Source of the DNA: an uncultured Chloroflexia bacterium
GTDB lineage: Bacteria; Chloroflexota; Limnocylindria; Limnocylindrales; CSP1-4
NCBI GenBank assembly: GCA_963813535.1
Contig: CAWEZH010000002.1
Coordinates: forward strand, 576,001 to 640,000
Direction of reading: 5' to 3'
DNA: 64,000 nt
Shown: piece by piece, positions 12,715-16,666 of the stretch
Layout of the letters: each line of letters starts with the position of its first letter
How positions within the stretch are numbered: the stretch's first letter is position 1
Made by a program: the position numbers and the translations under genes
The notes under the pieces: generated by a model
Told to the model about the DNA's origin: nothing
Database searches by the model: none
The model's input: only the letters and a program-made list of their open reading frames with translations

Positions 12715-13905
12715 GTGACGGTGGGCGCCCGCGCCGTGCCGGTGGCGGTCGTTGCGGGGCTGTTCATCGCCTCGCTCGCGATGCGGCCACAGATCCTCGC
12801 GATCGGCCCGTTGCTGCCGTTGATCCGGACAGATCTGGGGCTGCCAGCCGGCATCGCGGGTCTCCTGACCACCATCCCTGTCCTGTGCATGGGCGTGTTC
12901 GCGCCGGCCGGACCACGTCTCGCCGCGCGGTTCGGGGCGTCGACGGCGTTCGCCGCCTGCCTCGTCGCGATCGTCGGCTTCGGTGTGGCTCGTGCGCTGG
13001 CGCCGAGCGTCCCGCTCCTGCTCCTGGGGACGCTCGGGATCGGCATCGCGATCGGCTCAGCGGGCGCCATCCCCTCGATGATCGTCGCCCAGCGCATGCC
13101 CACACGGCCGGCGCTCGGCACCGGTGCCTATGCAGGCGGCATCGTGGCGGGCTCGACGCTGGCGTCCGGACTTGCGGTACCGCTTGCTGTCGACGACGAC
13201 TGGCGCCGGGCACTCATGATCATCTCGCTGGCGTCGCTGCTCTCGGTCGTGGCCTGGCTCGTGCTCGTCGGCGCCGACCAACGCGATCGGGTCGTGGGTG
13301 CTGTCGCCAGGCATCTGCCCTGGCGCGATCCGACCGGCTGGTTGCTAGTCGTGGTATTCGGGCTCCAGTCGGTCCTGTTCTACGGGGTCGTGTCGTGGCT
13401 GCCGAACGCCTTCGTCGAGCGTGGCTGGAGCGCGATCGATGCCGGCGCCCTCATCGCGGTGTTCAATGGCGTCGGCCTGCTCACCACGGTCGGCCTGCCG
13501 CTGGTGGCCGACCGGCTCGGGTCGCGACGGATCCAGCTGCTCGTGTCGTCGGCGGTCGCGGTCGTCGCCCTTCTCGGTGTGATCGCGGCACCGGATCTCG
13601 CGTTCCTCTGGGTGGCGATCCTCGGCCTGTCGCTCGGCGCCGTCTTCCCACTCGTGCTGACACTGCCGCTCGATGTCGCCGACGAGCCGGCGCGCGTCGG
13701 TTCGGTGGCGGCATTGATGCTGCTCGGTGGCTACGTCCTGTCGTCGACGGGACCGGTCGTCCTCGGCGCCGCGCGTGACGTGACGGGCGACTTCGGCGCC
13801 AGCATGTGGATCCTCGTGGGGATCGCGGTCGCGCTGGTCGCCTCCTGCCTGACGCTATCGCCCGACCGCCTTCGGCGCGGCATCCATCGAGAGATCGCGG
13901 CGTGA
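12715..13905 (+). CDS. MFS transporter (CynX/cyanate-permease-like)
   Basis: About 12 TM helices; MRPQILAIGPLLP, GLLTTIP, GLQS..FY..SWLP. Confidence 0.85.
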   Translation: MTVGARAVPVAVVAGLFIASLAMRPQILAIGPLLPLIRTDLGLPAGIAGLLTTIPVLCMGVFAPAGPRLAARFGASTAFAACLVAIVGFGVARALAPSVPLLLLGTLGIGIAIGSAGAIPSMIVAQRMPTRPALGTGAYAGGIVAGSTLASGLAVPLAVDDDWRRALMIISLASLLSVVAWLVLVGADQRDRVVGAVARHLPWRDPTGWLLVVVFGLQSVLFYGVVSWLPNAFVERGWSAIDAGALIAVFNGVGLLTTVGLPLVADRLGSRRIQLLVSSAVAVVALLGVIAAPDLAFLWVAILGLSLGAVFPLVLTLPLDVADEPARVGSVAALMLLGGYVLSSTGPVVLGAARDVTGDFGASMWILVGIAVALVASCLTLSPDRLRRGIHREIAA

Positions 13906-13963
13906 CGACAGCCACCGCGAGGCGTTCCAGCGTTCTCACACCGTGGCGAAGAGCGTTGCCAGT

Positions 13964-13992
13964 TTGCAATCCAGAGCGCTGTCATGGACAAT
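13964..13992 (+). promoter_or_regulatory. Putative promoter of the leader peptide / sulfurtransferase operon
   Basis: TTGCAA(13964)-17 nt-GACAAT(13987), ending 10 nt before the leader ATG. Confidence 0.5.
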
Positions 13993-14002
13993 GCCGCGGC
14001 AG

Positions 14003-14074
14003 ATGAACCGCTACCACGTCCACCACCACTGCATGTGTCATGCCGCTGCCGAGCAGGGCAGGTGGTGTCGATAG
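14003..14074 (+). CDS. Putative attenuator leader peptide MNRYHVHHHCMCHAAAEQGRWCR (23 aa)
   Basis: Short ORF with 5 His and 3 Cys, clustered CAC CAC CAC TGC ATG TGT CAT, lying between the promoter and an intrinsic terminator. Confidence 0.7.
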   Translation: MNRYHVHHHCMCHAAAEQGRWCR

Positions 14075-14116
14075 GCGTGCGTTCCTCGTAGATCCGCACG
14101 CCGGTCCAACCCCCGA

Positions 14117-14145
14117 ACCCCTGCCGACGGCAGGGGTCTTTTGTT
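14117..14145 (+). terminator. Intrinsic terminator (attenuator) in the 5' leader of the sulfurtransferase gene
   Basis: Stem ACCCCTGCC-GAC-GGCAGGGGT followed by CTTTTGTT, about 35 nt upstream of a same-strand ATG. Confidence 0.8.
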
Positions 14146-14179
14146 ACGCCGAATCACGACCACCACAGAGGGACCCAGC

Positions 14180-15517
14180 ATGACGACCGACCAGACCAGG
14201 ACCATCGCGCTGGACGAGTTGCGTGATCGCCTCGAGGATCCTTCACTGACGCTCCTCGACGTACGGCCGCTCGCCGCCTACAACGGCTGGCGCCTCGGCA
14301 CCGAGGCGCGCGGCGGGCACATCCCCGGTGCAGCCGCGTTCCCGCTGGAGTGGCTGCAGACCGTCGACGAGCCCGAGATCGCCCGCCTGTTCGCAGGCAA
14401 GGGCGTCACCCCGGACCGGGACGTGGTCGTCTACGGCTACGGCGCAGACGACGCCGCGACCCTGGCCGATCGGATCGAGCGCTTCGGCATCCCGGACGCG
14501 CGGGTCTTCGAGGCCGGGTTCGCCGAATGGGCCAGGGATCCGTCGCTGCCGGTCGAGAAGCTGCCGAAGCACGAGAAGCTCGTGCACATCGAGTGGCTCC
14601 GGCAGGTCCTGGCGGGCGAGCGGCCGGAGGCGGCACCGCCCGGCGACTTCCTGTTGTTCCACGTGAACTTCGGCGTCCCGGAGGAGTACGCAGAGGCGCA
14701 CATCCCGGGCGCGATCTATCTCGACACCAACACGCTCGAGGACCCGGCCGATTGGAATCGACGCCCGCCGGAGGTCCTCGATGCCGCGATCCGCGCGCTG
14801 GGCATCACCAAGGACACCACGGTCGTCGTCTACGGCCGCGACACCGAGGGCCAGGCGAACGAGAAGTGGCCCGGCCGTCGCGCGGGCCAGATCGCCGCCA
14901 CACGGGCGCTGATGATCCTGACCTACGCAGGCGTCGAGGACGTGCGACTGCTCGACGGCGGCTACGACTGGTGGGTCCGCGGAAGCAACCCGGTCGAGAC
15001 CATCATCCGCGAGCCATCGCCCGTCGCGGACTTCGGCGCGGTCATCCCGGTCCGCCCGGAGGTCATCGTCGACATCGGTGAGGCCAAGGAGATCATCGCG
15101 GACCCCGACGGCGCGGCCCTCGTGAGCGTGCGCACGTGGCGCGAGCACATCGGCTCCGTGAGCGGCTACAACTACATCGGACCGGCCGGACGGATCAAGG
15201 GCGACGTCTGGGGCAACTGCGGCACGGACGCGTATCACATGCAGCACTACCGCAACGTCGACAACACGATGCGGGCGTATCCGGAGATCACGGCGAACTG
15301 GACCGAGGCGGGGATCGTCCCCGAGAAGTGGATCGCCTTCTACTGCGGCACCGGCTGGCGTGCGAGCGAAACGTGGTTCTACGCGTTCCTCCAGGACTGG
15401 CCGCGTATCGCCGTCTATGACGGGGGCTGGTTCGAGTGGAGCCAGGATCCGATGAGCAACCCGATCGAGATCGGGGTGCCGGACGTCGAGACACCTCGAG
15501 ACGTGTACGCCGCCTGA
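14180..15517 (+). CDS. Three-domain rhodanese sulfurtransferase (YnjE-like)
   Basis: Two HIPGA rhodanese signatures, active-site loop CGTGWR as in E. coli YnjE, C-terminal YDGGWFEW. Confidence 0.9.
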   Translation: MTTDQTRTIALDELRDRLEDPSLTLLDVRPLAAYNGWRLGTEARGGHIPGAAAFPLEWLQTVDEPEIARLFAGKGVTPDRDVVVYGYGADDAATLADRIERFGIPDARVFEAGFAEWARDPSLPVEKLPKHEKLVHIEWLRQVLAGERPEAAPPGDFLLFHVNFGVPEEYAEAHIPGAIYLDTNTLEDPADWNRRPPEVLDAAIRALGITKDTTVVVYGRDTEGQANEKWPGRRAGQIAATRALMILTYAGVEDVRLLDGGYDWWVRGSNPVETIIREPSPVADFGAVIPVRPEVIVDIGEAKEIIADPDGAALVSVRTWREHIGSVSGYNYIGPAGRIKGDVWGNCGTDAYHMQHYRNVDNTMRAYPEITANWTEAGIVPEKWIAFYCGTGWRASETWFYAFLQDWPRIAVYDGGWFEWSQDPMSNPIEIGVPDVETPRDVYAA

Positions 15518-15559
15518 AGCACGCTCGAGTTCGAGCGTCGCATCGACGATGACCGTGAG

Positions 15560-16666
15560 GTGACGGCCGAGCGGCTGCGGATCGGCCTCGTCGGTTGCGG
15601 GGACGTGGCGCGCCGGCACTACCTGCCGGCGCTCGCCGACCTCGCCGATCGCGTCCGTATCGTGTCGTGCATGGACGTGCGGCTCGATGCGGCCGACGCC
15701 CTGGTCGTCGACATCGCCTCCTGGTCGCCGGGTGCGCGCGCATTCGACGACCTCGACGCGATGCTCGCCGATGGTGGTCTGGATGCGGTCATCGACCTGG
15801 CGCCCGCGACGCGGCACGGGACAGTGAACCGGGCGGTCCTCGACGCCGGCGTCGCGCTCTACTCGGAGAAGCCGATCGCGGGCACGCTCGAGGAGGCGGA
15901 CGGCCTCATCGAAACGGCGAGGCGCGGCGGCGTGCCGTTCCTGTGCGCTCCGGGCGTGGCCGTCACGCGCCGGTTCGCGTGGCTGGCCGATCTCGTTCGC
16001 TCAGGACGGTACGGGCGAGCGACCCTCGTCGTCGCCCATCACGCCGATCCGGGTCCGGCGGCCTGGCGCGAATACACGGGCGACCCGCGGCCGTTCTACG
16101 GCAGGGGTGTGGGACCCGTCATCGACCATGGCATCTACCGACTCCACGGCATGACGATGCTGCTCGGACCCGTCCAGCGCGTGCAGGCCATGGGCGCGAT
16201 CGGCACGCCGACGCGCCACGTTCGCGGTGGACCGCTCACGGGCCAGACGATCCCCGTCACGACACCCGACCATGTGCTCATCAATCTCGAGTTCGCGAAC
16301 GGTGCCCTCGGTCAGCTCCTCGCCAGCTTCGGCACGGCTGCGACGCTCGCGCCGTGGATGGAGGTCCACTTCGAGCGTGCCACGGTCAGCTTCGGCGGCC
16401 AGTCCCACGAGAAGGACGCTCCGGTCAGCCTCTACGTCGACGACGAGTCACCGGCCGCTCGCGAGGGCTGGGCCCACGGCGTCGAGATCCCGGTCGATGA
16501 CGTTGCGGTGGTCGAAGCCGGGATCCGTCACTTCATCGACGTCCTGTCCGGCGACGCCGAGCCGATCCTGACCGCCGAGCACGCACGTCACGTGCTCGAC
16601 ATCATCGTGAAGGCGTATGCGTCGATCGAGGATGGCGCCTCGCACGCGACCGAAACGACCTTCTGA
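15560..16666 (+). CDS. Gfo/Idh/MocA family oxidoreductase
   Basis: IGLVGCGDVA Rossmann motif, SEKP, GPVIDHGIY. Confidence 0.9.
   Translation: MTAERLRIGLVGCGDVARRHYLPALADLADRVRIVSCMDVRLDAADALVVDIASWSPGARAFDDLDAMLADGGLDAVIDLAPATRHGTVNRAVLDAGVALYSEKPIAGTLEEADGLIETARRGGVPFLCAPGVAVTRRFAWLADLVRSGRYGRATLVVAHHADPGPAAWREYTGDPRPFYGRGVGPVIDHGIYRLHGMTMLLGPVQRVQAMGAIGTPTRHVRGGPLTGQTIPVTTPDHVLINLEFANGALGQLLASFGTAATLAPWMEVHFERATVSFGGQSHEKDAPVSLYVDDESPAAREGWAHGVEIPVDDVAVVEAGIRHFIDVLSGDAEPILTAEHARHVLDIIVKAYASIEDGASHATETTF

What the first reader, a model, noticed from the sequence alone, without database searches (positions are those of the whole stretch)
13964..15517. Unannotated His/Cys leader-peptide attenuator controlling a YnjE-like sulfurtransferase
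Seen, in order: promoter-like TTGCAA-17-GACAAT; a near-leaderless 23-aa ORF MNRYHVHHHCMCHAAAEQGRWCR (14003-14074); a hairpin GGCGTGCG..CGCACGCC (14074-14102); an intrinsic terminator ACCCCTGCC/GGCAGGGGT-CTTTTGTT (14117-14145); then the rhodanese ATG. The leader's 3' part GCAGGGCAGG (14053-14062) is complementary to the terminator 5' arm CCCTGC/CCTGCC. A ribosome stalled at the His/Cys-Met-Cys codons would leave it free to form an antiterminator, while full translation would mask it. Known: ribosome-mediated attenuation, and Cys-rich leaderless uORFs controlling sulfur genes in mycobacteria. Inference: a terminator-type attenuator sensing Cys/Met supply, or His or metal via the HxHHHCxCH nascent peptide. 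I do not recognise this combination as described for a YnjE-type gene.
Basis: partly seen in the sequence, partly recalled or inferred. Interest (0 to 1): 0.82.

Follow-up and report, generated by a model that had tools for sequence, protein, structure and literature searches.

The report
Cysteine-sensing attenuator with second mini-ORF
A tiny cysteine-codon reading frame and a switchable transcription stop signal sit in front of a sulfur-transfer enzyme gene in uncultured Chloroflexota and most likely switch the gene on when cysteine runs short; the principle is textbook, but a conserved overlapping second mini-frame suggests an undescribed way of keeping the switch off.

Summary
Promoter, 23-codon leader ORF, hairpin, antiterminator and terminator lie where stated. 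The same leader stands before the orthologous three-domain rhodanese in 78 of 108 loci examined.

Conserved: an in-frame start, a Cys-x-Cys pair with strong bias to the rare UGU codon, and the pairing segments. Not conserved: the His run, confined to one clade, where it pairs with the RNA. His or metal sensing is therefore unlikely. Best reading: a classical ribosome-mediated transcription attenuator that reads Cys-tRNA supply (about 0.75; inferred, no experiment).

The target is closer to EanB-type enzymes than to YnjE, but no EanA/EgtD was found, so it is not filed as an ergothioneine synthase.

[quoted passage not shown] A GUG in that frame overlaps the last Cys codon. In all 10 leaders lacking the first stop, the loop stop is in frame instead. 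This points to termination-reinitiation on an overlapping mini-ORF.

This scan already reported the attenuator on other genomes; two word look-ups found no note of the second frame or the EanB link.

The parts
13964..13992 (+). Promoter-like site: -35 TTGCAA, 17 nt, -10 GACAAT; predicts a leaderless or nearly leaderless transcript
   Evidence: conserved spacing to an in-frame ATG in homologues; not detected by the consensus scan; start site not mapped
14003..14074 (+). Leader ORF (uORF1), 23 codons, MNRYHVHHHCMCHAAAEQGRWCR
   Evidence: homologous ORF in 78 of 108 loci
14015..14029 (+). His-codon run; clade-specific; its CAC repeats pair with GUGGUG of segment 2
14030..14038 (+). Control codons Cys-Met-Cys (TGC ATG TGT); inferred stall site
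   Evidence: Cys at these two positions in 50 and 55 of 62 leaders; second one UGU 53:2
14040..14050 (+). Segment 1 (ends in CUGCC); can pair with segment 2, or with the terminator 3' arm when the antiterminator is formed
14053..14068 (+). Segment 2, antiterminator strand (GCAGGG core 14053-14058); encodes Q-G-R-W-C, conserved at the nucleotide level
14065..14091 (+). Putative overlapping mini-ORF (uORF2) in the -1 frame: GTG 14065, 8 codons, TAG 14089-14091 in the hairpin loop
   Evidence: translation not shown
14074..14102 (+). Hairpin P3 (8-bp stem, about -15 kcal/mol) that brings segment 2 next to the terminator arm
   Evidence: 5 of 8 pairs with changes on both sides
14117..14145 (+). Intrinsic terminator, 9-bp stem 14117-14137 (-17.1 kcal/mol) and U tract
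14168..14173 (+). Shine-Dalgarno-like GAGGGA of the rhodanese gene
   Evidence: 16S 3' end found in the genome
14180..15517 (+). Regulated gene: 445-aa three-domain rhodanese of the EanB/YnjE group, no signal peptide seen; catalytic loop CGTGWR (Cys389)

Best explanation
A classical ribosome-mediated transcription attenuator that measures charged tRNA-Cys. Transcription starts just before the leader ATG (inferred). As the terminator's 5' arm emerges, segment 2 pairs with it across hairpin P3 unless a ribosome covers segment 2 (computed). With ample Cys the ribosome passes the Cys-x-Cys codons, sits on the Gln-Gly-Arg-Trp-Cys codons and the stop, masks segment 2, and the terminator forms. With scarce Cys it stalls at the wobble-read UGU codons upstream of segment 2, the antiterminator forms first, and the rhodanese gene is transcribed (inferred). 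Because the untranslated nascent RNA tends to antiterminate, the off state needs the ribosome to dwell on segment 2; the last UGU codon, the hairpin in front of the ribosome and reinitiation on the -1 mini-ORF probably lengthen that dwell, and the loop stop keeps such ribosomes out of the terminator (inferred, weaker). The enzyme most likely supplies sulfane sulfur for the genome's CysO/CysM-type cysteine route (inferred from gene content only).
For: Leader in 78 of 108 orthologue loci, proteins 67-94% identical. In-frame ATG 57 of 59. Cys is 15.7% of leader residues against 0.6% of codons in 1731 long ORFs of the genome. UGU:UGC is 102:45 upstream and 62:1 at the last Cys, against 18% UGU genome-wide and 1:110 in the rhodanese genes themselves; one tRNA-Cys(GCA). 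Nearest Cys lies 3-6 codons before the Gln codon in 63 of 65. Nascent-RNA folds: antiterminator above 0.5 in 83 of 86 (stall at first Cys), 78 of 86 (last upstream Cys), 0 of 86 (ribosome at last Cys or stop); in the window the boundary lies between codons 15 and 17. Target is a sulfurtransferase; genome has moeZ-, cysO-, cysM- and mec-like genes in a row and a cystathionine beta-synthase, while PAPS reductase and CysE were not found. A differently built leader with a Cys pair precedes the same gene in six other loci.
Against: No experiment. The antiterminator shows conservation but no change on both sides of any pair. At equilibrium on the full-length RNA a stall at the last upstream Cys gives the terminator in 65 of 86, so the switch must be kinetic. 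Any stall at codons 2-15 would allow the antiterminator, so folding does not single out Cys. Only 2-3 control codons. UGU bias could partly serve RNA pairing (U-G pairs). Two RNA contigs run through the terminator rather than ending at it (contigs cannot show ends or strand). The enzyme's substrate is unknown.
Confidence: 0.75

Rival explanations
1. Same attenuator, but the signal is broader than Cys-tRNA charging: it reports slow decoding of UGU/UGG codons (for example loss of a sulfur-containing tRNA modification) or, in this clade, also His or Met shortage.
For: Strong UGU preference; stalls at His or Met codons also leave the antiterminator free; His 7.3% and Met 4.6% of leader residues; HisG not found in this 93% complete genome.
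Against: His absent from 20 of 58 and internal Met from 14 of 58 leaders; His run explained by pairing and confined to one clade. tRNA modification status was not examined.
Confidence: 0.12
2. The nascent peptide binds a metal or a persulfide through CxC (and His) and arrests the ribosome, as CruR does for copper.
For: Cys spacing is mostly CxC rather than a run; CruR senses copper through a CXXC motif in a uORF (PMC9426467, abstract).
Against: Synonymous UGU bias is not needed by a peptide sensor; the residues after CxC are variable and the QGxWC tail is fixed as nucleotides (CAG 59, GGC 61 of 65; W replaced by R or G with NGG kept); the arrest would have to occur within about four codons of CxC; CruR uses a C-terminal RAPP arrest motif and Rho, neither seen here; no metal gene is under this leader.
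Confidence: 0.06
3. No translational sensing: the ORF is incidental and the element is a plain terminator of the upstream gene, a protein-binding site or a riboswitch.
For: In the window the MFS gene ends 211 nt before the terminator on the same strand; several positions are invariant as nucleotides.
Against: Start, frame and stop conserved while the N-terminal codons vary freely; upstream neighbours differ between loci; no Rfam family matches the window; 34 nt between U tract and ATG leave little room for a separate promoter.
Confidence: 0.05

Closest known systems
Classical leader-peptide transcription attenuators (E. coli trpL, pheL; Salmonella hisL)
   Same: Short ORF with control codons, mutually exclusive antiterminator and intrinsic terminator, basal level tied to ribosome release at the leader stop (PMC3082878, passages).
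   Different: Cys codons; nearly leaderless; extra hairpin P3 between the stop and the terminator; conserved second-frame stop. In pheL the alternative-frame stop position is not conserved and the frameshifting is called apparently incidental.
uORFC-8-2 motif before cysS in Rhodobacterales (Brewer et al. 2021, PMC8632094, passages)
   Same: Predicted uORF with two Cys codons plus intrinsic terminator; same proposed logic.
   Different: Tandem Cys with UGC dominant there; CxC with UGU dominant here; other phylum, other target, no shared sequence tested; also only predicted.
Mycobacterial polycysteine leaderless sORFs, Ms5788A/Rv0815A (bioRxiv 10.1101/834739, passages; PMC1262725, passages; PMC13096801, passages)
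   Same: Leaderless Cys-codon uORF senses Cys; the operon includes a sulfurtransferase (cysA2).
   Different: Eight consecutive Cys; control is translational through Shine-Dalgarno access, shown not to be by transcription termination; no terminator.
EanB ergothioneine synthase of Chlorobium limicola (PDB 6H98, 6KTV; the tool labels them only 'Sulfurtransferase', the name is recalled and fits the Tyr and Thr variants)
   Same: Best solved-structure match (402 bits, full length); Tyr353, Cys412, Thr414, Arg417 equivalents present (Tyr330, Cys389, Thr391, Arg394); shares the insertion in domain 2 that YnjE lacks.
   Different: No EanA/EgtD methyltransferase found in this genome or over cut-off in 61 searched; the same four residues are also in YnjE, so they do not decide.
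E. coli YnjE
   Same: Three rhodanese domains, CGTGWR loop, 38% identity.
   Different: YnjE is periplasmic with a signal peptide and has poor activity on thiosulfate (PMC10215317, passages); it lacks the domain-2 insertion.
CruR copper-responsive uORF (PMC9426467, abstract)
   Same: uORF with a Cys pair controlling downstream transcription.
   Different: Larger DUF2946 protein, RAPP arrest, Rho-dependent, copper genes.

Membership tests
Classical leader-peptide transcription attenuator | Short translated ORF before the regulated gene, conserved start, frame and stop | tested here: met
   ORF conserved; translation itself not shown
Classical leader-peptide transcription attenuator | Control codons for an amino acid related to the regulated function | tested here: met
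   Cys 15.7% vs 0.6%; target is a sulfurtransferase
Classical leader-peptide transcription attenuator | Intrinsic terminator before the gene | tested here: met
   (91% of cells paired, U tract in the alignment)
Classical leader-peptide transcription attenuator | Antiterminator exclusive with the terminator | tested here: met
   98% paired, but no two-sided changes; folds
Classical leader-peptide transcription attenuator | Geometry: stall frees, full translation masks the antiterminator strand | tested here: met
   constraint folding; equilibrium folds less clean
Classical leader-peptide transcription attenuator | RNA polymerase pause that couples transcription to translation | tested here: inconclusive
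   Y-G steps spread 9-14 nt after P3 with other peaks
Classical leader-peptide transcription attenuator | Read-through rises when the cognate aminoacyl-tRNA is scarce | not testable with these tools
   needs reporter or Term-seq
Mycobacterial polycysteine translational attenuators | Run of consecutive Cys codons at the 3' end of the uORF | tested here: not met
   2-3 upstream Cys, mostly CxC
Mycobacterial polycysteine translational attenuators | Control by Shine-Dalgarno sequestration, no intrinsic terminator | tested here: not met
   conserved terminator present
CruR-type metal-sensing uORF | CXXC motif plus C-terminal RAPP arrest motif, DUF2946 | tested here: not met
   no Pfam match for the peptide; no RAPP in leaders shown
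Rfam families (riboswitches, T-box, leaders) | Match at gathering score | tested here: not met
   0 matches in the window
EanB ergothioneine synthase | Three rhodanese domains with Tyr353, Cys412, Thr414, Arg417 | tested here: met
   also met by YnjE, so not diagnostic
EanB ergothioneine synthase | Histidine methyltransferase EanA/EgtD in the locus or genome | tested here: not met
   PF10017 not found in own genome (93% complete); 0 of 61 over cut-off
EanB ergothioneine synthase | Sulfurises trimethylhistidine | not testable with these tools
   needs enzyme assay
YnjE | N-terminal signal peptide, no domain-2 insertion | tested here: not met
   alignment starts at residue 16 vs 33 of YnjE and the insertion is present; signal peptide judged by eye only

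The most novel reading that the evidence does not exclude
A two-frame attenuator. After finishing the leader peptide the ribosome reinitiates 7 nt upstream, on a GUG that overlaps the last Cys codon and is preceded by the SD-like AGGG of the antiterminator strand, translates a 5-9 codon mini-ORF into the loop of hairpin P3 and stops there. This holds segment 2 and P3 open until the terminator is made and so sets the basal leak, while the loop stop protects the terminator. Termination-reinitiation would then be a built-in timer of a transcription attenuator. The regulated EanB-like enzyme without EanA may in addition have an undescribed sulfur acceptor.
Probability: 0.4. Interest if true: 0.72.

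Novelty: new variant of a known kind. Interest (0 to 1): 0.55.

Why it matters
Cysteine-sensing leaders have been shown only as translational switches in mycobacteria and predicted once with a terminator before cysS. This family gives more than 100 natural variants of a terminator-type Cys attenuator in an abundant uncultured group, and ties an uncharacterised EanB/YnjE-type sulfurtransferase to sulfur limitation. The second-frame stop is a sharp, cheap-to-test sign that ribosome behaviour after the leader stop (release versus reinitiation) is under selection, which bears on the old question of how basal read-through of attenuators is set.

Tried and rejected
Rfam scan of the window: no match. 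Pattern search of 401 class genomes: 12 hits, all before the rhodanese; the pattern's gap was too short to match the window itself, so it undercounts. Ergothioneine pathway: EgtD not found, EgtB only partial matches below cut-off. Programmed -1 frameshift as entry to the second frame: considered and rejected by inspection, because the P-site and A-site tRNAs cannot re-pair on GUG; not computed. Loop stop as an RNA motif at fixed distance from the 3' arm: distance varies, all three stops occur, UGG hardly ever. Pause-site spacing: inconclusive. Genome-wide control for promoter-to-ATG spacing: uninformative, 17 sites and none before a long ORF. Anti-SD pairing before the GUG: median -4.7 against -6.5 kcal/mol for the rhodanese start, with no random control. 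RNAalifold did not recover P3 on the MAFFT alignment. Masking at the second stop still allowed the antiterminator in 53 of 86 nascent folds because the model lets RNA pair across the ribosome; in the window it did not. Static folds of the second leader type showed no switch. RNA runs: nine with small shares, four laid; lack of cover upstream of 14009 and over most of the gene is not used as evidence. The careful tree did not finish; the quick tree was used. Supplements of the papers were not read; those of PMC8632094 may list further uORF motifs.

Full report
OBSERVATION. The terminator is the only one found in 13600-15800; the promoter was not found by the consensus scan. Rfam has no match. 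The RNA cut before the terminator's 3' arm folds into an antiterminator, the full RNA into the terminator.

HOMOLOGUES. I collected loci by the protein alone. Titles of the named relatives are mostly Limnocylindria/Chloroflexota. Of 110 loci two were dropped (one distant paralogue, one without upstream DNA). 78 of the remaining 108 carry this leader (the count includes the window and duplicates between the two searches); 65 are unique, 59 after a 90% filter. 75 were anchored by a pattern that requires NGG before the last Cys codon, three by hand, so counts at that spot are partly conditioned. With these and 12 class-wide hits the set is 109 unique leaders, 89 at 90%. Every leader with enough downstream DNA lay before this gene; no second copy was found in the own genome.

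WHAT IS CONSERVED. The first ATG after the promoter motif is in frame with the last Cys in 57 of 59. Cys makes up 15.7% of leader residues against 0.6% in the genome; 57 of 58 have at least two Cys before the last. Cys codons are UGU 102:45 upstream and 62:1 at the last position, while the genome uses 18% UGU, the rhodanese genes 1 in 111, and there is one tRNA-Cys(GCA). That UGU is read more slowly by wobble is my recall, not a result. His is absent in 20 of 58 leaders; the run is confined to one clade (SH-aLRT 99, 15 rows, quick tree), uses CAC and pairs with GUGGUG in most of the 11 folds shown. The tail QGRWC is fixed as RNA: CAG 59 and GGC 61 of 65, Trp replaced by Arg or Gly with NGG kept.

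STRUCTURE. On a 59-row alignment P3 is 84% paired with 5 of 8 pairs changed on both sides, the terminator 91%. The six-pair antiterminator core is 98% paired but shows no two-sided change, so it is conserved, not covarying. A 1:2 helix is 79% paired (another register). Segment 1 can also pair with the terminator 3' arm and stabilise the open state (83%). With a 27-nt ribosome mask on 86 of 89 leaders, the nascent RNA forms the antiterminator in 69 (no ribosome), 83 (first Cys), 78 (last upstream Cys) and 0 (last Cys, or stop). At equilibrium on the full RNA the terminator wins in 49, 32, 65, 81 and 74 of 86: the switch must be kinetic, and the off state needs a ribosome on segment 2. In the window the boundary lies between codons 15 and 17; His or Met stalls would also open it.

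THE SECOND FRAME. In the protein-selected set 48 of 58 leaders with a normal first stop have a stop codon in the P3 loop in the -1 frame, 4 in +1, 2 in frame; in the pattern-selected set 23, 3 and 0 of 41. Shuffling the loop gives a mean of 8.5 and a maximum of 18 against 49 observed in 73. The stop sits at +14, +17, +20, +23 or +26 from the last Cys, always 3n+2, as TGA, TAG or TAA, and these states are scattered over the tree. Reverse-strand and linker controls give at most 6 of 89 in any frame. A GUG in the same frame lies within -4 to +5 in 65 of 65; it is kept in one leader that lost the last Cys, and is replaced by a GUG overlapping the stop in another. Leaders with a stop right after the GUG keep the loop stop less often (4 of 11 against 53 of 70, Fisher p = 0.013, not corrected for kinship). 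All 10 leaders without the first stop end in frame in the same stretch and none has a -1 loop stop; on the tree these fall in four places, with modest support. This fits reinitiation after termination better than fresh initiation, which would not depend on the first stop. Against: 10 of 58 and 18 of 41 lack the loop stop; the GUG is also explained by pairing with segment 1; the SD is weak; whether the stop is a timer or only a safeguard cannot be told from sequence.

THE TARGET. Best PDB matches are 6H98 and 6KTV (402 bits) before YnjE (299). That these are EanB is recalled; the deposited Tyr-to-Phe and Thr-to-Val/Ala variants match the residues named in two reviews (PMC10903977, PMC9103826, passages). 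The catalytic residues are present but also in YnjE. EgtD/EanA was not found, and many EanB-like enzymes have no known function (PMC9516567, passages). So ergothioneine synthesis is not supported. The genome (93% complete) lacks detectable PAPS reductase and CysE but has moeZ-, cysO-, cysM- and mec-like genes in a row (several below curated cut-offs). In mycobacteria that route needs sulfane sulfur of unknown source (PMC3227635, passages). Supplying it is my best guess, about 0.4.

EXPRESSION. Two RNA runs from two studies hold contigs covering 14009-14191 and 14012-14175 with one differing letter each. They cover the leader and bridge the terminator. Contigs show neither strand nor ends, and no DNA run was laid; this is a weak hint only.

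PRIOR WORK. Terminator-type Cys attenuation was predicted for uORFC-8-2; Cys-sensing leaderless uORFs are shown in mycobacteria as translational switches over an operon with a sulfurtransferase. Nine literature searches (open-licence PMC and bioRxiv only) listed no paper on this element, on Chloroflexota Cys leaders, or on a conserved overlapping mini-ORF inside an attenuator. PMC4833913 (abstract) proposes reinitiation from leader genes onto structural genes, a different case; in pheL the second-frame stop is not conserved. Supplements were not read. Earlier notes of this scan describe the same attenuator on at least four other genomes; I saw only their short texts, and word look-ups for the second frame and for EanB returned nothing.

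VERDICT. A real, conserved, very probably Cys-sensing transcription attenuator: new variant of a known kind. The His/metal idea is not supported. The conserved second-frame stop is the surprising part and is directly testable. Interest 0.55.

Noticed in passing
L028, L029, L073, L085, L086, L097, about 150-280 nt before the rhodanese start: A second leader type before the same gene: GTG/ATG-started ORF of 21-34 codons with a Met-Cys-x-Cys/Trp core, and in most a different, longer terminator. Static folds showed no switch.
   Followed up: partly
L015 (same DNA as L079), about 110 nt before the rhodanese start: Promoter and terminator kept, middle of the leader missing; a 32-codon GTG ORF with three Cys codons runs through the terminator. 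Deletion relic or a third design.
   Followed up: partly
L088-L091, L093, L099, L102, L104; L094, L098, L105: Orthologues in Actinomycetota lack the leader; eight share a TTTACTTT motif upstream. Three others share a TTGACTAT motif, a full inverted repeat in L105, which resembles Rrf2-family operators (resemblance recalled, untested).
   Followed up: no
window 12715-13905: CynX/NimT-like MFS gene (below curated cut-off); its cluster lies next to the rhodanese in 22 of 80 loci, upstream or downstream (rough ORF calling), suggesting a functional link.
   Followed up: partly
window 15560-16666: Gfo/Idh/MocA oxidoreductase 42 nt after the rhodanese, same strand; probably co-transcribed here; its cluster follows the gene in 11 of 80 loci.
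   Followed up: partly
L244 (G000:C2:1930865-1934728) and L245: moeZ-like, cysO/SAMP-like, cysM-like and JAB-protease genes in a row; separate cystathionine beta-synthase.
   Followed up: partly
own genome: HisG, PAPS reductase and CysE not found; two CysRS-like genes; a tRNA-Sec; one tRNA-Cys.
   Followed up: no
G001, G007, G011, G012, G015, G017, G019, G020, G029: Rhodanese match split in pieces, as from frameshifts; may be assembly errors.
   Followed up: no
L032, L033, L038, L049 upstream, opposite strand: ORFs that look like molybdate-regulator and ABC-permease genes near the locus (clusters 15 and 16; labels by eye, not tested).
   Followed up: no
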